Part shown: positions 9,418-16,779 of the stretch, in pieces
Layout of the letters: each line of letters opens with the position of its first letter
Numbering within the stretch: the stretch's first letter is position 1
Sequence record: OR352945.1
Direction: 5' to 3' (one strand)
DNA from: Escherichia phage AV115
DNA length: 64,000 nucleotides
Position numbers and translations under genes: made by a program
Notes under the pieces: generated by a model
Told to the model about the DNA's origin: nothing
The model's database searches: none
Seen by the model: the letters and a program-made list of their open reading frames with translations, nothing else

Positions 9418-9826
9418 ACTTTTTCTTATGTTGGATATTCCAAGGCGGGTTGAACTTTTTGATAAAAAGTGGTTCTTCAAGGTCCATTGTTGCGATGGTC
9501 ATTGAACCAAGTTCGTTGGTGACTGAAAGGTCAAAACATTGGCGGGCCCAGAATTCAACCTTTTTGCCTTGCATTAAGGCATCCAAAATCATAAGTGATT
9601 TTCTTGAATCTGAAGTCTGGTCTTTTCGATTTATGGCTGTTCGATAATAGTTAATGCGTTTCTTTAAATTCTTGGTTTTACCAATATACACAAGTTCGTC
9701 ATCTATAGCAATAGCATATATAACATTTTTCTTATTAGGGGCATCAATGGTTTTAATTGTTGCATCTTCTAATAGCTCCAATTCTATATATTTAATAAAG
9801 GAATATTCGGCGGCAATATCTTTCAT
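9416..9826 (-). CDS. denA: endonuclease II (GIY-YIG family)
   Basis: 136 aa with GIY-YIG-like VYIGKTKNLKKRINYY; position between gene 63 and nrdB. Confidence 0.85.
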   Translation of the reverse strand: MKDIAAEYSFIKYIELELLEDATIKTIDAPNKKNVIYAIAIDDELVYIGKTKNLKKRINYYRTAINRKDQTSDSRKSLMILDALMQGKKVEFWARQCFDLSVTNELGSMTIATMDLEEPLFIKKFNPPWNIQHKKK

Positions 9827-9834
9827 AATAAAGT

Positions 9835-9848
9835 GGGACCGAAGTCCC
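9835..9848 (-). terminator. intergenic UUCG hairpin between nrdB and denA
   Basis: GGGAC-UUCG-GUCCC on minus transcript; weak U-tract, may be stability element. Confidence 0.35.
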
Positions 9849-9852
9849 GTCC

Positions 9853-10355
9853 TTAGAAATATTTTTTGTATGAATTGATTACATTTTGGTCTACATCATT
9901 ATCAATTTGTGCGACAAGATAAGAACTGATTTCAACTTCCTGAGGAGCTGCTTGAACTAAATCAGAGTTCAGATATTCACGAATCCAAGGATAAGGATGT
10001 TTGGTCGGAGCATCAGTAATTGGACACGGCAAACCACACTGTTTCATACGAGACACAGTCAAGTAATCAACAAAAGCACACATACTCTGTGTATTGATAC
10101 CTGGACATGTACCGTCTTTAAAGAGGTGTGCAGCCCATTCCTTCTCTTGACTATTTACTTCCATAAAAATGTCAACTGCTTCTTGTTCACATTCTTTAGC
10201 AATTTGAACCCACTCATCACCATCAGTACCGGATTGAAGTTGACGGATAATGTACTGAGTACCCTTGAGATGGAGTTGTTCGTCACGAGCAATGAACTTC
10301 ATAATCTTTGCATTGCCTTCCATAATTTCCATATTCTTATGGAAATTAAATGTAC
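9853..10355 (-). CDS. nrdB: ribonucleotide reductase small subunit NrdB, exon 2
   Basis: C-terminal R2 sequence (FNFHKNMEIMEGNAK...); joins exon 1 to give conserved Cys codon TGT. Confidence 0.85.
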
Positions 10356-10947
10356 CGTTATGTTCGATTGAGCTCGCTAATTCTCAACCCGTTCTCTTAT
10401 GAACTGCTGCATATTACTATGCAGACCAGACTATATCACAATCCCGGAGGGATTCTCCCCATTTCGAGTCGCTTGACCCTACGTCCGAAGACTAGTCGTT
10501 GAACCTTGCTTTGCAATTGTCGCCGTGCCATCGTTTATATGTCGATGGTGATAAATCTTTCTTTTCACAATATGGACAATTCAATTGAATTCTATTTGGA
10601 TTTAATTTGCATCTGTCATTATGTTTTAGATAAAACCCAGGACCTTTACCAATGTGACCGCAGAAATCACATGTGATTTCTTTTTGTGCAGGATGGGTTC
10701 CGTTCTTAACCATTTCTAATGTTTTTGCTGATGTTCTTCCATCAGAATCTTTAGGTATAGGCCCGTTAGCATCCATCCAAATTTTTCTATAATTCAATTG
10801 TGCATCCTCTTAAAAGTATAATCATATTTATTTTATAATATACTAATTAAAGGTGCAAGCAAAACCTTGGCTGCTAGTTTTCCTATAAAGGACTTTCCAG
10901 CAATTAAAGGAGTTTTCGATAAACGTTACCGTTTAAAGGCGCATTTT
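10356..10947 (-). mobile_element. group I intron in nrdB (about 592 nt; boundaries approximate)
   Basis: Interrupts conserved R2 sequence; 3-prime end GAACATAACG and core blocks shared with td intron. Confidence 0.8.
10492..10797 (-). CDS. intron-encoded HNH/zinc-finger endonuclease remnant (I-TevIII-like, 101 aa)
   Basis: ORF inside nrdB intron with CxxC...H...C and CxxC...HGDNC motifs; short, so probably truncated. Confidence 0.6.
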   Translation of the reverse strand: MNYRKIWMDANGPIPKDSDGRTSAKTLEMVKNGTHPAQKEITCDFCGHIGKGPGFYLKHNDRCKLNPNRIQLNCPYCEKKDLSPSTYKRWHGDNCKARFND

Positions 10948-11623
10948 ACGCAAAAGATACATAAAAACGAATAGCTTCCAATGCATTGATGACATGCAAA
11001 CAAAGATAAAGAGATTTCATTAGGTCTCGTTTAGCTTCGGTCTCTTGTTTAATAGCTCGGTTTAAACGAAGGTCGGCATCAGGAGATTCTTTAGCTTGTT
11101 CTACAAATTCTTTAGCATTTTCCCAATTACGAGTCTTGACTAGAACATCATCATAATATTTACCTATTGATTCAGCTCGTTTCATGATTGCTTCGTCTAA
11201 TACAATCTCATCAAATACTTTGGATGGATCGGTATAAAGATTTCGCATAATATGAGTATACGAACGAGAGTGAATAGTTTCACTGAATGTCCATGTTGCA
11301 ACCCACGTATCTAATGAAGGGTCGGAAAGCAGTGCCATAAGTACCGCAGATGGGGCCCTGCCTTGGATAGAATCTAATAATGATTGATACTTAAGGTTGT
11401 TTGTAAAGATGTCCTGTTGGAACTGAGGAAGCTTATTGAACTGGGCCGAATCCAGCATCAGGTTTACTTCTTCTGGTCGCCAGAAAAACGACAATTGCTT
11501 TTCAATAAGTTCTTCAAAAACTTTATGTCGCTGAATATCATAACGTGCGAGGCCAAGACCAGAACCAAAGAACATTGGTTCATTCAAAACATCGACTTGT
11601 TGTGTGTTAAAAACTGTACTCAT
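10948..11623 (-). CDS. nrdB: ribonucleotide reductase small subunit NrdB, exon 1
   Basis: N-terminal R2 sequence ending ...RFYVSFA then in-frame stop at exon/intron junction. Confidence 0.85.
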
Positions 11624-11678
11624 TATATTTTCTCACTTAGTTATTAACTCATCCATGAGTAAATTATAATCAAAAGTC

Positions 11679-13943
11679 TTAAAGCTTACAAGCAGAACAA
11701 TCTTCAGCTTTAGGTGTTTCTAATTCATAGTCATCTGTACCTGACCCATCACGAGTGTTATGATAGTAGAGGTTTTTTCCGCCAAAGTACCAGAAGTAAA
11801 GCAGATCGTCAAGCATTACTGACATTGGCACTTTACCTTTCTCAAATACTGCAGGGTCATAGTAAGTATTAGCAGAAGCAGATTGGCACACCCATTTCAA
11901 CATGATAGCAACTTGGGTCAAATAAGGTTTATTACCTTTCTTAGCAAGTTTCCACGCGTAGTCGTAAAGACTCATGTTATGTTCTATATTAGGAACAACC
12001 TGTCGGAAGTTGCCTTCTTTAGATTCTTTAATACTTACAGGTCCACGAGGTGGTTCTATACCATTTGTGCTATTTGAGACTTGACTGCTTGACTCACAAG
12101 GCATGAGTGCAGACAACGTTGAGTTACGAATTCCATGTTCTTTGAGTTCAGCTCGAAGTTCTTCCCAGTCACAGACATAGTTCGGGGCTGCGATTTGGTC
12201 AATCTTTTTATTGTACCAGTCGATAGGTAATTCGCCTCTAGACCATTTAGTGTCTGAATAATACTCACAAGGTCCTTTTTCTTTGGCGAGTTTGATTGAT
12301 GCTTTGATAAGGCCATATTGCAATCTCTCGAACAATTCATGGGTCAAATCGTTAGCGTCTTCATATGAAGCAAAGTTAGAAGCTAACCATGCAGCATAGT
12401 TCGTCACACCAACACCGAGATTTCGACGCTTTTTAGCTTTTAAAGCTTCTGGAACCGGATAATCTTGATAGTCTAACAGGTTATCAAGTGCACGTACTTG
12501 TACTTCAGCAAGTTCATTAATTTTATCTTGGTCTTGCCAATCAAATTTATCTAATACAAAAGCAGATAATGTGCATAAACCAATTTCAGCATCAGGACCA
12601 TTCACATCATTAGTTGGAATAGCGATTTCACAACATAAGTTACTCTGACGAATTGGAGCTTTTTCACGAATAAACGGAGTGTAGTTATTCGTGTTATCAA
12701 CAAACTGTGGATAAATTCGAGCAGTGCCAGAACGTTCAGTCATGAACAATTCAAAGAGTTCTAGTGCTTTGATTCTTTTCTTTCTGATTGTTGGGTCTTT
12801 TTCAGCTTTCTCATAAAGCTCACGGAATTTATCTTGATCTTCAAAGAACGAGTAGTATAGTTCACCTGACATTTCGTGAGGGCTAAATAAAGTAATATAA
12901 TCATTTTTACCAAGGCGTTCCATCATAAGGTCATTAATCTGAATTCCGTAGTCCATATGTCGAATACGGTTTTCATCCACGCCTTTGTTATTTTTCAGAA
13001 CTAATAGGTTCTCTACTTCTAAGTGCCACATCGGATAATACGCTGTAGCAGCACCACCACGAATACCACCTTGAGAACAAGATTTTACTGCAGTTTGGAA
13101 ATGTTTCCAGAATGGAATAACACCTGTATGTCGAACTTCACCCGTACCGATCTTAGAACCTTCTGCACGAAGCATACCAACGTTGATACCGATACCAGCT
13201 CGTTTAGAAATATATTCAATAATTGATGCTGAAGTTTTGTTAATAGATTTTAACGAATCACCTGCTTCAATAACTACACAACTAGAGAACTGGCGAGTTG
13301 GAGTACGAGCACCTGCCATAATTGGGGTTGGCAATGAAACTTGATGAGTAGAAACGGCATCATAAAAACGAATAATATGTTTCAAACGGTCATGAGTTTC
13401 GTCTTGGTGTAAGGCCATGCCAATAGCCATGATAGCAAACTGGGGAGTTTCATAAATCTTCCCAGTTGTTTTATCTTTAACTAGATATTTTTCTTTAAGC
13501 TGCATAGCACCAGCATAAGTCAGGTCAAAGTCTCGTTCATGTTTAATCTGTGAATCGAGATAAATGATTTCTTCTGCTGAATATTGAGACAACAGCTCAG
13601 GGTCATATTTGCCTTCATTAACACAGTAAGAAATATGGTCTATAAAAGCAGGCGGTTCAAACTGCCCATATACATCTTTACGAAGTGCAAACATTAGCCC
13701 TTTGGCGGCGACATACTGATAATCAGGTTCTTCGACAGAAATCAAGTTAGCTGCAACTTTAATACAAATCTTCTGAATATCTTTGGTGCTCATCCCGTCG
13801 ACAAGATGGGTCTTAATTTCTTCATACAATTCGTATGGGTCGATTTGTGTTCCTTCACACTGCCAAGTTAATACTTGAATAATTTTCTGTGCATCAAAAT
13901 TTTGGGATACACCTGAATTTTTCACTACTTTAAAATTATACAT
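11679..13943 (-). CDS. nrdA: ribonucleotide reductase large subunit NrdA
   Basis: 754 aa; class Ia R1 features; T4 length and synteny. Confidence 0.95.
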   Translation of the reverse strand: MYNFKVVKNSGVSQNFDAQKIIQVLTWQCEGTQIDPYELYEEIKTHLVDGMSTKDIQKICIKVAANLISVEEPDYQYVAAKGLMFALRKDVYGQFEPPAFIDHISYCVNEGKYDPELLSQYSAEEIIYLDSQIKHERDFDLTYAGAMQLKEKYLVKDKTTGKIYETPQFAIMAIGMALHQDETHDRLKHIIRFYDAVSTHQVSLPTPIMAGARTPTRQFSSCVVIEAGDSLKSINKTSASIIEYISKRAGIGINVGMLRAEGSKIGTGEVRHTGVIPFWKHFQTAVKSCSQGGIRGGAATAYYPMWHLEVENLLVLKNNKGVDENRIRHMDYGIQINDLMMERLGKNDYITLFSPHEMSGELYYSFFEDQDKFRELYEKAEKDPTIRKKRIKALELFELFMTERSGTARIYPQFVDNTNNYTPFIREKAPIRQSNLCCEIAIPTNDVNGPDAEIGLCTLSAFVLDKFDWQDQDKINELAEVQVRALDNLLDYQDYPVPEALKAKKRRNLGVGVTNYAAWLASNFASYEDANDLTHELFERLQYGLIKASIKLAKEKGPCEYYSDTKWSRGELPIDWYNKKIDQIAAPNYVCDWEELRAELKEHGIRNSTLSALMPCESSSQVSNSTNGIEPPRGPVSIKESKEGNFRQVVPNIEHNMSLYDYAWKLAKKGNKPYLTQVAIMLKWVCQSASANTYYDPAVFEKGKVPMSVMLDDLLYFWYFGGKNLYYHNTRDGSGTDDYELETPKAEDCSACKL

Positions 13944-14583
13944 AATAATTCCATGTTGGATAATTTGATGATTTTAGACGGCGTCTAACCGTTTGGGTGC
14001 TCATAGATAAAATTATTGACGCTTCATTTAATGTATCATATATTACGTCGTTTATAATTACTTTCTTTGCAAATGGATTCTTAGCTCCTATCATAGCGTT
14101 AGAAATAGCTTGCTTAGTTGATTCTTTTAATGGGACTCCTTTAGAAATTTTTGTTTTAATTTTTATATTGTATTGTCCGCGTTTTTTACCTAATAAAGAA
14201 TTTCGTATCTTTTCTTTAGTCTCTTCAGATTTAACATGTCCTAGTTTGGAACGAGATATTTTATCTTTTGTTTTTTGGTCTAATTTTCGCCCTTTAAGCA
14301 AATCAACCATTTTTGCTCTAGCCCATCCAAATTCTTTATTATTTCTAGAACTCATTAAATTAACCGCGGTTGCTAAACCTAAATTGTTCGGATATATTTT
14401 TAATAAAAGAAGATGAGCCAAATAATGTTCTGAATATGTTAATTTAACTAGATTGTATGACTCATTGGTGCCACCTAAACATTTTGGGATTATATGATGC
14501 CATTCACCATCGATATCTTCAAAATTTCTTTCTTTATTTACTAAGTTTTTATATATTTTTAAATAATCCATAGTATAATCCAC
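13936..14583 (-). CDS. free-standing HNH homing endonuclease (215 aa)
   Basis: HHIIPKCLGGTNESYNLVKLTYSEHYLAH motif; 3-prime end overlaps nrdA start by 8 nt. Confidence 0.75.
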   Translation of the reverse strand: MDYTMDYLKIYKNLVNKERNFEDIDGEWHHIIPKCLGGTNESYNLVKLTYSEHYLAHLLLLKIYPNNLGLATAVNLMSSRNNKEFGWARAKMVDLLKGRKLDQKTKDKISRSKLGHVKSEETKEKIRNSLLGKKRGQYNIKIKTKISKGVPLKESTKQAISNAMIGAKNPFAKKVIINDVIYDTLNEASIILSMSTQTVRRRLKSSNYPTWNYYV

Positions 14584-14646
14584 TTTGTAGTATCAACGGG
14601 ATAGTATTTATCCCGTTAATTTATTATACACTTTTAAACTGAAGCG

Positions 14647-14901
14647 TTAATTATCCTCAGCAATAATTTCTTCGTATTCTTTAGGTGTCAAGACCGTGAT
14701 ATTGAAATAAACCAACGGTTCTTTTTCCACACCGTAACCACCACAGAATTCACGATATTCATAAATTCGTTCATGTGAATAACAAATGAATCGTTCACCT
14801 TTAACTATGATTTCACTATTCGGTGAAGGGATATCTAGTTCGGTAGGATTTTTCATTTCAAAAATTGTGGTGCCATATGAATTAATAAAACGTAAAATCA
14901 T
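14647..14901 (-). CDS. hypothetical protein (84 aa)
   Basis: ORF between td exon 2 and the HNH gene. Confidence 0.45.
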   Translation of the reverse strand: MILRFINSYGTTIFEMKNPTELDIPSPNSEIIVKGERFICYSHERIYEYREFCGGYGVEKEPLVYFNITVLTPKEYEEIIAEDN

Positions 14902-14902
14902 T

Positions 14903-15214
14903 TTATACCGCCATTTTAGCTTTGATAGCTGGATGTGATTCGTAATTTTTAAGAACGAAATCAGAATGTGTCATCGTTCCGGTAACCCAGTCCATTTGGA
15001 TTTTTGTAGGCCAATTCTCAAAATTACTAGGCCAATTAATTTCAAGAGAACATAACTCTTTAGGTTCATGACGAAGAACTTCTTTGCATTGTTCTACATG
15101 ATTGCTGTAGATATGCGTGTTGCCGCCTGAGAACACTAAATCACCTGGGATAAGGTTACACATCTTCGCTACAATATGTGTCAAGGCAGCGTACGAGGCG
15201 ATGTTGAACGGTAG
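14903..15214 (-). CDS. td: thymidylate synthase, exon 2
   Basis: Begins LPFNIASYA..., matching recalled T4 td after the intron. Confidence 0.9.
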   Translation of the reverse strand, partial: LPFNIASYAALTHIVAKMCNLIPGDLVFSGGNTHIYSNHVEQCKEVLRHEPKELCSLEINWPSNFENWPTKIQMDWVTGTMTHSDFVLKNYESHPAIKAKMAV

Positions 15215-16230
15215 CATTATGTTCAGATAAGGTCGTTAATCTTATCCCGGAATTATATCCAGCTGCATGTCACCATGCAGAGCAGACTATATCTCCAACT
15301 TGTTAAAGCAAGTTGTCTATCGTTTCGAGTCACTTGACCCTACTCCCTAAAGGGATAGTCGTTAGGCATTTATGTAGAACCAATTCCACTTATCAGATTT
15401 TACACGGTAAGTAACTAATCCTGATGAAATTTCAAAATGTCTAGCCGCATCGGCTGCACATTCAAAAATAATCCCATCGCATGAAATCTTTTTGATGTTA
15501 GCTGGCTTTTTGCCTTTCATCTTTTCAGATAGTTTAGTTTTAGTTTTTTCTGAATGTTTGTGATTAAAGAACGGGTTATTTTCACCTGAACGTTTTCGGC
15601 ACTTTCCACAAGTATCGGCCGAAGATGGTATGCGAACACCGCATTTACAAAACTTGTGGTTTTCTGGATTCCATCGGCCATTTTTACTTCCGTGTTTACC
15701 ATAAAGAGCTTTCCGACCATCAGGACCAAGCTTAAGCATCTTAGCTTTAACAGTTTCAGCTCGTTTCTTAGCAATTTCTTCTTTTAATGGATGATTTGAA
15801 AGCACATCGCCAAAAGACGCATCAGCAATATTATATCCATTAATTTTAGAATTTAGCTCTTTAATCCAAAAATTTTCTCGTTCAATAATCAAATCTTTCT
15901 CATATGGAATTTCTTCCAGTATAGAGCATTCAAAAACATTACCATGTTTATTAAAAGACCTTTGAAATTTTATAGAAGAGTGAACACCGTTTTCAAGGTC
16001 TTTAAAATGTCTCTTCCATCTTTTCTCAAAATCTTTAGCACTTCCAACATACACTTTACCGTTTAAAGTGTTTTTAATCTGATAAATTCCGCTTTTCATA
16101 AACACCTCTTTTTATATAGAAGTATTTATTAAAGGGTAGTCCTACAATTTAGCACGGGATTGTCTACTAGAGAGGTCCCCCGTTTAGATAGATTACAAGT
16201 ATAAGTCACCTTATACCTAGGCCTAAATTA
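15215..16230 (-). mobile_element. group I intron in td (1016 nt)
   Basis: 5-prime end TAATTTAGGCCTAGGTATAAGGTGACTTATAC and 3-prime end GAACATAATG on the minus strand; length equals recalled T4 td intron. Confidence 0.9.
15362..16099 (-). CDS. GIY-YIG homing endonuclease I-TevI
   Basis: 245 aa from ATG 16097-16099; MKSGIYQIKNTLNGKVYVGSAKDFEKRWKRH closely matches recalled I-TevI. Confidence 0.9.
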   Translation of the reverse strand: MKSGIYQIKNTLNGKVYVGSAKDFEKRWKRHFKDLENGVHSSIKFQRSFNKHGNVFECSILEEIPYEKDLIIERENFWIKELNSKINGYNIADASFGDVLSNHPLKEEIAKKRAETVKAKMLKLGPDGRKALYGKHGSKNGRWNPENHKFCKCGVRIPSSADTCGKCRKRSGENNPFFNHKHSEKTKTKLSEKMKGKKPANIKKISCDGIIFECAADAARHFEISSGLVTYRVKSDKWNWFYINA

Positions 16231-16779
16231 ACCTAAGAAAACATCTACACTGCGTTGATACCATTGTAAATCAAGATGACCATTACGCACATTGAACTGA
16301 TAGAACATATGGCAAGGAGGAAGAGCCATTTGATTTATTTCAGCCGGATTCCAGGCAGAAACAATTTGACGACGATCAGTTGGTAATTTTTTAATACGGT
16401 CGATTGTTTCAACTAATTGGTCTACACCACCAAAATCACGCCATTGCTTACCATAAATAGGACCAAGTTCGCCGCTATGATATCCAAGGTCTTTTGCCTG
16501 ATTTTCATAGTTGTCGTCCCAAATAGTTTTACCTTGAATAAGACTACCATGAGTACGAATACGCAAATCATTAACATTGGTAGAACCAGACATGAACCAC
16601 AGTAACTCGGCAATACAAGCTTTCCATGCTAATTTCTTAGTTGTTACTGCAGGAAATCCTTTAGTAAGGTCCCAACGTAATTTAGTTCCGAACAGGGCAA
16701 TAGTGCCGGTACCTGTACGGTCGTCTGTTTCGTAGCCATTTTCTAAGATATCTTTAATCAGGTATTGGTATTGTTTCAT
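16231..16779 (-). CDS. td: thymidylate synthase, exon 1
   Basis: Ends ...SVDVFLG; in-frame TAA is the first three intron nucleotides. Confidence 0.9.

What the first reader, a model, noticed from the sequence alone, without database searches (positions are those of the whole stretch)
10381..10500. Two introns share near-identical core blocks
The nrdB intron (10381-10500) and td intron (15230-15360) both contain CAGACTATATC, TTTCGAGTC(G/A)CTTGACCCTAC and TAGTCGTT in the same order on the plus strand. These are presumably the conserved catalytic core segments, and they provide roughly 20-bp identical stretches about 5 kb apart that could support intron-intron recombination.
Basis: seen in the sequence. 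Interest (0 to 1): 0.3.

Follow-up and report, generated by a model that had tools for sequence, protein, structure and literature searches.

The report
Shared ribozyme blocks in two T4-type introns
The short sequences shared by the nrdB and td introns of this T4-like phage are the conserved folding elements of two related self-splicing group I introns, a long-known feature of phage T4, so the finding is correct but ordinary.

Summary
The window is Escherichia phage AV116, a T4 relative. All three blocks are present exactly where stated, but the introns are transcribed from the minus strand, so the blocks are reverse complements of the RNA.

As RNA:
- AACGACUA is J6/7 plus the 5' strand of P7.
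- GAUAUAGUCUG is the 3' strand of P7, the guanosine-binding helix.
- GUAGGGUCAAGYGACUCGAAA is the P7.2 hairpin with its junctions. This is a subgroup IA extension that Rfam's general group I model treats as an insertion.

Covariation across 59 diverse phage introns supports P7, P7.1, P7.2, P8 and P9.

"Roughly 20-bp identical" is overstated. The longest perfect runs are 11 nt, and the 21-mer has one mismatch, in the loop. The 3' domains are 71% identical (z about 22); the 5' parts show no similarity above chance.

T4 has the same blocks in td and nrdB, and nearly the same in nrdD. The 21-mer occurs in at least 96 unrelated viral contig stretches.

Recombination between T4 introns was published in 1989. 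No sequenced phage carries a td-nrdB deletion or chimera.

One addition: td introns of Salmonella phages Melville and SEA1 carry an nrdB-type P9.2 hairpin, which suggests natural exchange of a module between the two intron lineages.

Verdict: already known.

The parts
10356..10947 (-). nrdB group I intron, 592 nt, T4-type eroded version
   Evidence: Exon joining restores a 392-aa NrdB colinear with the intronless Melville nrdB. 569 positions are identical to the T4 nrdB intron. RF00028 matches at 35.9 bits, below the gathering score.
15215..16230 (-). td group I intron, 1016 nt
   Evidence: Exon joining restores a 286-aa Td colinear with the intronless S16 td. 917/1016 positions are identical to the T4 td intron, which has the same length.
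10493..10500 (-). nrdB block 3: RNA AACGACUA = J6/7 plus the P7 5' strand (R element). Holds the bulged C and the G of the guanosine-binding pair, and contains the TAG stop codon of the intron ORF.
   Evidence: the sequence.
15356..15363 (-). td block 3: RNA AACGACUA = J6/7 plus the P7 5' strand. The I-TevI stop codon TAA (15364-15362) overlaps its first two bases.
   Evidence: the sequence.
10462..10482 (-). nrdB block 2: RNA GUA-GGGUC-AAGC-GACUC-GAAA = P7.2 hairpin with conserved flanking junction bases
   Evidence: One search places it in an insertion relative to the general group I model.
15323..15343 (-). td block 2: RNA GUA-GGGUC-AAGU-GACUC-GAAA = P7.2 hairpin. The single difference from nrdB is the fourth loop base.
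10427..10437 (-). nrdB block 1: RNA GAUAUAGUCUG = P7 3' strand (S element)
15283..15293 (-). td block 1: RNA GAUAUAGUCUG = P7 3' strand (S element)
   Evidence: The seventh pair is A-U here and G-C in td, a compensatory change.
15263..15280 (-). td P9 hairpin CUGCAUGGUGACAUGCAG
10455..10460 (-). nrdB P3 3' strand GGGGAG. Pairs with CUCCUU at 10907-10912.
   Evidence: 6 of 6 positions paired.
15316..15321 (-). td P3 3' strand GAUAGA. Pairs with UCUAUC at 16187-16192.
   Evidence: 6 of 6 paired. One search aligns the same bases to P3 of RF00028 in the SEA1 td intron.
10366..10391 (-). nrdB P9.2 hairpin CGGGUUGAGAAUUAGCGAGCUCAAUC, the module found transplanted into td introns of Melville and SEA1
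15362..16099 (-). I-TevI homing endonuclease ORF, 245 aa, in the P6 loop of the td intron
   Evidence: Pfam GIY-YIG, I-TevI zinc finger and I-TevI DNA-binding domain; record annotation.
10492..10776 (-). Remnant I-TevIII ORF, 94 aa, zinc-finger part only, H-N-H domain missing
   Evidence: No Pfam hit. The T4 record annotates the homologue as a defective H-N-H endonuclease. The deletion is described in PMC1865063.
11679..13943 (-). nrdA, the main gene that a td x nrdB intron crossover would delete

Best explanation
The two loci are the td and nrdB self-splicing group I introns (subgroup IA) of a T4-like phage, both transcribed from the minus strand. The shared blocks are homologous RNA structural elements of their 3' ribozyme domains.

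AACGACUA and GAUAUAGUCUG pair with each other to form P7, the helix that binds the guanosine cofactor. GUAGGGUCAAGYGACUCGAAA folds on itself as the P7.2 hairpin (GGGUC/GACUC stem, AAGY loop), flanked by conserved junction bases GUA and GAAA. The helices between the blocks (P7.1, P3, P8) differ in sequence between the two introns but keep their pairing.

The identity reflects two things. One is functional constraint, which acts on the P7 strands, the junction bases and the loop. The other is common descent from one phage intron family, which explains the shared P7.2 stem sequence, because that stem is free to covary in other introns.

As a by-product, the blocks are collinear direct repeats about 4.86 kb apart. 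They can serve as rare, low-efficiency recombination sites. A crossover would delete td exon 2, nrdA and nrdB exon 1, and leave a hybrid intron. Hybrids that cross over 3' of P3' (in the P7 3' strand or in P9) keep P3 intact and should still splice. Hybrids that cross over in AACGACUA or in the 21-mer mismatch P3 and should not.

Shown here: the identity of the introns, their boundaries, and the helices. Taken from literature: that T4 introns recombine. Inferred: the splicing outcome of each kind of hybrid.
For: - The window is 100% identical to phage AV116, with split nrdB and td genes. Exon joining restores both proteins.
- T4 carries the same three blocks in td and nrdB, and near-identical ones in nrdD. 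The T4 record annotates both as group IA introns.
- Rfam RF00028 aligns AACGACUA and GAUAUAGUCU to its R and S consensus. It matches the natural ORF-less td intron of phage SEA1 at 69.6 bits, above the gathering score of 50. In that alignment the 21-mer lies in a 31-nt insertion between P7 and P3'.
- P7 covaries. Seven contexts have GAUCA/UGAUC in place of GACUA/UAGUC, and two have a compensatory A-U to G-C change.
- P7.2 covaries. 41 of 41 stems are fully paired across 25 different stem sequences, against 65% paired when partners are shuffled.
- Formal count on 59 introns: 96.0% of cells paired, against 72.4% in shuffles and 31-47% when partners are slid. 25 of 29 pairs change on both sides.
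- The 3' domains are 71% identical with z about 22, while the 5' parts are at chance level.
- The 21-mer occurs in at least 96 stretches of unrelated viral contigs, always in the same layout.
- P3 is 6/6 paired in each native intron, and 4/6 or 3/6 in hybrids.
Against: - Rfam finds nothing in the window at its gathering scores. The two window introns score only 35.9 and 16.5 bits, because of the inserted ORFs and the subgroup IA extensions.
- Splicing was not tested.
- No natural td-nrdB deletion or chimera was found. Recombination at these blocks therefore rests on literature I could confirm only by title and a secondary mention, plus my own recollection of it.
- The 11-nt and 8-nt blocks are individually within chance expectation.
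Confidence: 0.93

Rival explanations
1. The identity is kept up by ongoing gene conversion between the two introns in the same genome (concerted evolution), not by constraint plus shared descent.
For: td introns of Melville and SEA1 carry an nrdB-type P9.2 hairpin and the nrdB-type loop base in P7.2. This shows that exchange between the two lineages can happen. SEA1 holds both introns about 4 kb apart.
Against: - In the window, T4, RB3 and S16, the segments between the blocks (P7.1, P3', P8, P9.1, P9.2) are fully diverged between td and nrdB.
- The one difference in the 21-mer (U in td, C in nrdB) is stable across those phages.
- Six control td introns show 0-1 nrdB-diagnostic sites.
- The same 21-mer is present in at least 96 unrelated contig stretches that have no partner intron to convert with.
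Confidence: 0.05
2. The blocks are chance matches between two AT-rich non-coding regions.
For: Taken singly, the 8-mer (1.9 expected) and exact 11-mers (79 of 300 shuffles) are not unusual. An unrelated 13-nt exact match also exists between the I-TevI ORF and the nrdB intron.
Against: - The 21-mer never appears in shuffles.
- The blocks are collinear with near-constant spacing of 4,856 and 4,861 nt.
- The whole 3' domain aligns at z about 22.
- The same blocks recur in T4's three introns and in hundreds of phage introns, with covariation.
Confidence: 0.005
3. The blocks are DNA-level or protein-level signals, such as homing-endonuclease recognition sites, promoters or ORF ends, and not RNA structure.
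For: Block 3 overlaps the stop codons of both intron ORFs.
Against: - The variation is of the compensatory base-pair kind, which DNA-binding or coding constraints do not predict.
- The same blocks occur in T4 nrdD, where the ORF sits elsewhere (downstream of P9), and in the ORF-less SEA1 td intron.
- From established knowledge: homing sites lie in the intronless exon junction, not inside the intron.
Confidence: 0.015

Closest known systems
Phage T4 td intron (1016 nt, encodes I-TevI)
   Same: Same gene, same insertion site, same length, 917/1016 identical. The three blocks are identical, and only 2 differences fall in the 3' ribozyme part. The ORF is a complete I-TevI.
   Different: The ORF is roughly 12% diverged at the DNA level. 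A synonymous change in the 5' exon (TTGGGT to TTAGGT) is accompanied by changes in the internal guide sequence (sequence).
Phage T4 nrdB intron (598 nt, defective I-TevIII)
   Same: Same gene and site. It is the eroded form lacking the H-N-H domain, and the blocks are identical.
   Different: 592 nt, with small indels and 14 substitutions relative to T4. There is no mobE between nrdA and nrdB here; the gap is 55 nt.
Phage T4 nrdD (sunY) intron
   Same: It carries AACGACUA, GAUAUAGUCUG and the same P9 hairpin, plus GUAGGGUCAAGCGACCCGAAA, which has a single change that turns a G-U pair into G-C.
   Different: It is not in this window. Its ORF lies downstream of P9, not in P6, and its P7.1 is longer.
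Experimental recombination between T4 introns (Hall, Liu and Shub 1989, Nature 340:574; Bryk and Belfort 1990, Nature 346:394, the latter recalled from memory)
   Same: It is the same pair of collinear homologous introns flanking non-essential genes.
   Different: Nothing equivalent is seen in natural genomes: 0 of 360 records join td exon 1 to nrdB exon 2, and there are no high-identity chimeras. I could not read either paper, so the crossover positions they found are not compared.
General group I intron R and S elements (Rfam RF00028; P7 with the guanosine pocket, PMC3984707)
   Same: AACGACUA aligns to consensus UUCAaAGACUA, and GAUAUAGUCU aligns to AAGAUAUAGUC.
   Different: The 21-mer has no counterpart in the general model. 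P7.1 and P7.2 are named as class-defining extras in PMC3984707.

Membership tests
Group I self-splicing intron | P7 helix formed by the R and S elements, with a bulged base and the G-C pair of the guanosine site | tested here: met
   Both introns have ACGACUA / UAGUCU. Across 59 introns the pairs are 100% paired, and 3 of 6 show changes on both sides. They align to the RF00028 consensus.
Group I self-splicing intron | P3 long-range pairing that forms the P3/P7 pseudoknot, followed by a P8 hairpin | tested here: met
   P3 is 6/6 paired in each intron, using different sequences. P8 hairpins differ in sequence but pair, and P8 covaries in the family. RF00028 assigns the same P3 in the SEA1 td intron.
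Group I self-splicing intron | 5' splice site after a U that can pair with a G in the guide sequence (P1), and an intron ending in G | tested here: met
   The exons end ...GGU (td) and ...GCGU (nrdB). The introns end ...AUAAUG and ...AUAACG. The junctions are confirmed by colinearity with intronless genes. P1 was assigned by inspection, and by RF00028 in the SEA1 td intron.
Group I self-splicing intron | P4-P6 domain | tested here: inconclusive
   For td-type introns, RF00028 aligns P4, P5 and P6 in the ORF-less SEA1 intron, whose 5' part is close to the window's. For nrdB, P4 (UGCUGG/CUAGCA) was assigned only by eye, and the Rfam alignment ran into the ORF.
Group I self-splicing intron | Rfam RF00028 gathering score (50 bits) | tested here: not met
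   Nothing in the window reaches the gathering score, and the sub-threshold matches are 35.9 and 16.5 bits. The cause is the ORFs inserted in P6 plus the P7.1/P7.2 extras, because the same td-type intron without an ORF scores 69.6 bits.
Group I self-splicing intron | Self-splicing activity | not testable with these tools
   This needs in vitro transcription with GTP, or RT-PCR. It is known for the T4 homologues from the literature.
Subgroup IA (T4-type phage introns) | Extra hairpins P7.1 and P7.2 between the P7 5' strand and P3' | tested here: met
   Both hairpins are present in both introns. P7.2 is 100% paired with all 5 pairs covarying, and P7.1 is 94% paired with all 4 covarying. PMC3984707 names P7.1 and P7.2 as class features. 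The T4 record calls these 'group 1A' introns. The finer IA2 label was not tested here.
Mobile intron with a homing endonuclease | Intact intron-encoded endonuclease | tested here: met
   This holds for td only, which has a complete I-TevI domain set. The nrdB intron ORF is the 94-aa zinc-finger remnant with no Pfam hit, matching the non-mobile T4 form.

The most novel reading that the evidence does not exclude
Recombination between the td and nrdB intron lineages happens in nature as short-patch module exchange.

In Gelderlandvirus phages, the td introns of Melville and SEA1 are td-type throughout, except for the P9.2 hairpin and the P7.2 loop base. Their P9.2 matches the nrdB intron: a 25-nt exact match to the S16 nrdB intron. 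Close relatives STP4-a and EcL8g keep the td-type P9.2. SEA1 carries both introns about 4 kb apart.

If this is real, ribozyme hairpins are swapped as intact units between co-resident phage introns, using only 4-8 nt of flanking identity.
Probability: 0.65. Interest if true: 0.4.

Novelty: already known. Interest (0 to 1): 0.15.

Why it matters
The main finding adds nothing new. It re-describes the conserved ribozyme elements shared by the T4 introns, and the idea, tested experimentally in 1989-1990, that such elements allow recombination between introns and hence exon shuffling.

Its practical value is for annotation. It shows where the true intron boundaries and ribozyme helices lie in a record that only lists split genes.

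The side observation is modestly interesting. A P9.2 hairpin appears to have moved from the nrdB intron lineage into td introns of Salmonella phages. That would be natural, not laboratory, evidence that ribozyme modules are exchanged between introns.

Tried and rejected
- Rfam at gathering scores on the whole window found nothing. I had to use permissive thresholds and an ORF-less relative.
- My first pattern-based parse of the P7 strands was badly designed and parsed only 20 of 72 contexts. I redid it with fuzzy matching.
- One script failed because a locus file was not under the expected name. I redid it.
- I searched for natural deletion recombinants using a query that joined frd-td exon 1 to nrdB exon 2-denA. 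None of 360 records joined the two halves within about 1.5 kb.
- I searched for four artificial td/nrdB chimeras crossing over in the 21-mer or in the P7 3' strand. Every full-length hit was 86% identical or less, meaning other related introns and not recombinants.
- Literature: Bryk and Belfort 1990 and Shub et al. 1988 could not be found or read, nor could the T4 genome review. Two searches failed on term format. The 'hybrid intron' search returned an irrelevant paper.
- An IMG/VR scan for the nrdB-type P9.2 gave only one contig, so I used the isolate phage collection instead.
- I first argued that a 'genus-specific C' in P9.2 links Melville td to S16 nrdB. SEA1's td intron has T at that position, so that argument is weaker than I first thought.
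- In alignment A2, I cut the two window rows short of the P9 3' arm. Those cells were set aside.

Full report
**What the window is.** Bases 9800-16400 are 100% identical to Escherichia phage AV116 (OR352946.1), a T4-like member of Tevenvirinae. That record annotates split nrdB and split td genes, nrdA, and three homing endonucleases, all on the minus strand. The ORF list agrees.

**Intron boundaries.** From the sequence, the nrdB intron runs 10947..10356 (592 nt) and the td intron 16230..15215 (1016 nt). Joining the exons gives uninterrupted proteins of 392 aa (NrdB) and 286 aa (Td). These are the same lengths as the naturally intronless nrdB of Salmonella phage Melville and td of phage S16, with identical residues across both junctions. 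The td intron is 917/1016 identical to T4's and the same length. The nrdB intron has 569 positions identical to T4's. The td intron ORF is a complete I-TevI with GIY-YIG, zinc-finger and DNA-binding domains. The 94-aa nrdB intron ORF has no Pfam hit, as expected for the T4-type I-TevIII remnant that has lost its H-N-H domain.

**Checking the observation.** All three blocks exist at the stated places and in the same order.
- The 21-mer has no other copy in the window even with three mismatches, and none in 100 shuffles.
- The 8-mer and the 11-mer are each within chance when taken alone. In 79 of 300 shuffles, the two introns share an exact run of at least 11 nt.
- The signal lies in the collinear whole. 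The 3' domains align at 107/150 identical with z about 22. The 5' parts are at chance level, z about 0.4.
- The repeat finder ranks the two intron segments among the best direct repeats in the 7-kb interval: 41 nt at 80% and 28 nt at 86%, with spacings of 4,856 and 4,861 nt.
- 'Roughly 20-bp identical' is overstated. The longest perfect runs are 11 nt.
- The blocks were read on the plus strand, but the RNA is the reverse complement.

**Mapping onto the group I structure.** With permissive thresholds, Rfam's group I model matches both 3' domains, at 35.9 and 16.5 bits. It aligns AACGACUA to the J6/7-P7 consensus and GAUAUAGUCU to the P7 3' strand consensus. A cleaner mapping came from Salmonella phage SEA1. 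Its td intron is a natural 244-nt ORF-less version, and the 5' part of that intron is close to the window's. It scores 69.6 bits, above the gathering score of 50, over the whole model. In that alignment P7.1 plus P7.2, including the 21-mer, form a 31-nt insertion between the P7 5' strand and P3'. So two blocks are the two strands of P7, the helix that holds the guanosine pocket (PMC3984707). The longest block is the P7.2 hairpin of the subgroup IA extension.

**Covariation.**
- The 21-mer occurs in at least 96 stretches of unrelated viral contigs, with contig lengths from 4 to 280 kb. The layout is always the same: P7 5' strand, variable hairpin, 21-mer, P3', variable hairpin, P7 3' strand, P9.
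- In that set, seven contexts carry GAUCA/UGAUC in place of GACUA/UAGUC, and two carry a compensatory A-U to G-C change.
- A second scan was anchored only on the two P7 strands. There, the position of the 21-mer reads GUA, 5-bp stem, AAGY, return stem, GAAR. All 41 stems are fully paired across 25 different stem sequences, against 65% paired when partners are shuffled.
- A formal count on 59 introns gives 96.0% of cells paired, against 72.4% in shuffles and 31-47% when partners are slid. 25 of 29 pairs change on both sides, and all five helices are supported.
- Only one of the 41 unbiased sequences has the GGGUC/GACUC stem. Structure alone therefore does not force the stem sequence that td and nrdB share. 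That identity reflects membership of one intron family.

**Comparison with T4.** T4 has the same three blocks in td and nrdB. Its nrdD intron has AACGACUA, GAUAUAGUCUG, the same P9 hairpin, and a 21-mer with one stem change that turns G-U into G-C. The finding is therefore a property of the classic T4 introns.

**Recombination.**
[quoted passage not shown] Another paper describes it as showing that introns provide non-coding targets for recombination of exons in T4.
- From memory only, Bryk and Belfort (Nature 1990) reported spontaneous shuffling of domains between T4 introns. I could not retrieve it.
- In natural genomes I found no deletion joining td exon 1 to nrdB exon 2: 0 of 360 records. 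I also found no high-identity chimera for any of four crossover designs.
- From the sequence, P3 is 6/6 paired in each intron but only 4/6 or 3/6 in hybrids. I therefore infer that crossovers in AACGACUA or in the 21-mer, both of which lie 5' of P3', would give splicing-defective hybrids. Crossovers in the P7 3' strand or in P9 would keep P3 intact.

**A side finding.**
- While examining the chimera hits, I saw that the td intron of Salmonella phage Melville is td-type in P7.1, P3', P9, P9.1 and at the 3' end, but has an nrdB-type P9.2.
- It shares a 25-nt exact run, CGGGTTGAGAACTAGCGAGCTCAAT, with the nrdB intron of phage S16, which belongs to the same genus.
- STP4-a (same genus, same P8 sequence) and EcL8g keep a td-type P9.2.
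- Using sites diagnostic for the td or the nrdB group, Melville has 46 td-type and 8 nrdB-type sites, and five of the eight are consecutive in P9.2. A maximum chi-square permutation test gives 27 of 20,000. Six control td introns have 0-1 nrdB-type sites.
- S16 has the nrdB intron but an intronless td. Melville is the reverse. SEA1 has both introns about 4 kb apart, and its td intron also has an nrdB-type P9.2.
- SEA1's td copy reads AAT where Melville's reads AAC. The variant I first took as genus-specific is therefore polymorphic, which weakens that one argument.
- Paired sites are not independent, and hairpin loops may have a limited set of working variants. I rate natural exchange at about 0.65.

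**Verdict.** The biology is already known from T4.

Noticed in passing
L218 1565-1740 (Melville td intron); L227 7086-7329 (SEA1 td intron); L221 about 1577-2636 (S16 nrdB intron). Window counterpart: P9.2 at 10366-10391.: td introns of Salmonella phages Melville and SEA1 are td-type except for an nrdB-type P9.2 hairpin and the nrdB-type loop base in P7.2. Melville shares a 25-nt exact run with the S16 nrdB intron. This looks like a natural exchange of a module between the two intron lineages (permutation 27 of 20,000).
   Followed up: partly
L227 7086-7329 (OQ927978.1, about 139085-139328): Phage SEA1 has a natural ORF-less td intron of about 244 nt, in which a short P6 hairpin replaces the I-TevI ORF. 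It passes the Rfam group I gathering score (69.6 bits), unlike the ORF-bearing introns. SEA1 also carries an nrdB intron with an ORF.
   Followed up: partly
window 10492-10494 and 15362-15364: The stop codons of both intron ORFs lie in or against block 3. The TAG of the I-TevIII remnant is inside the P7 5' strand (AACGAC-UAG), and the TAA of I-TevI overlaps the J6/7 bases (GCC-UAA-CGACUA). Translation of either ORF would therefore run into the ribozyme core. PMC3984707 notes that such ORFs are tightly regulated.
   Followed up: no
window 16231-16236 (exon) and 16213-16225 (guide sequence): Relative to T4, the last td exon 1 codons carry a synonymous change (TTGGGT to TTAGGT). The intron's guide region changes from GCCTGA to GCCTAG at intron positions 13-14, which looks like compensation that keeps P1 paired.
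   Followed up: no
window 15215-16230: Divergence from T4 is very uneven along the td intron. There are 2 differences in the last roughly 150 nt (the ribozyme 3' domain), 7 in the first 125 nt, and about 90 in the 738-nt I-TevI ORF.
   Followed up: no
window 13936-14583 (minus strand): A free-standing ORF of 211-215 aa overlaps the start of nrdA. It has a NUMOD3 motif and a sub-threshold match to the I-TevI DNA-binding domain (25.0 bits against a 27-bit cut-off), and the record annotates it as a homing endonuclease. By contrast, the nrdA-nrdB gap is only 55 nt, so there is no mobE-like gene there, unlike T4.
   Followed up: partly
window 16056-16068 and 10926-10938: The longest exact match between the two introns is a 13-mer (CTTTAAACGGTAA in RNA sense). 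It links the I-TevI ORF to the 5' part of the nrdB intron, is not collinear with the ribozyme blocks, and is within what shuffles give (maximum 13).
   Followed up: yes
L223 about 1325-1345 (STP4-a td intron): The STP4-a td intron carries a compensatory change inside the 21-mer (GGGCC...GGCUC in place of GGGUC...GACUC). So even within td introns, the P7.2 stem can drift while staying paired.
   Followed up: no
L125 8250-9630; L134 141-1650; L153 3884-4444; L150 1191-1689: Several metagenomic viral contigs hold two or three introns of this family within 0.3-1.5 kb of each other. Such closely spaced homologous cores would offer more opportunity for intron-to-intron recombination than the 4.86-kb spacing here.
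   Followed up: no
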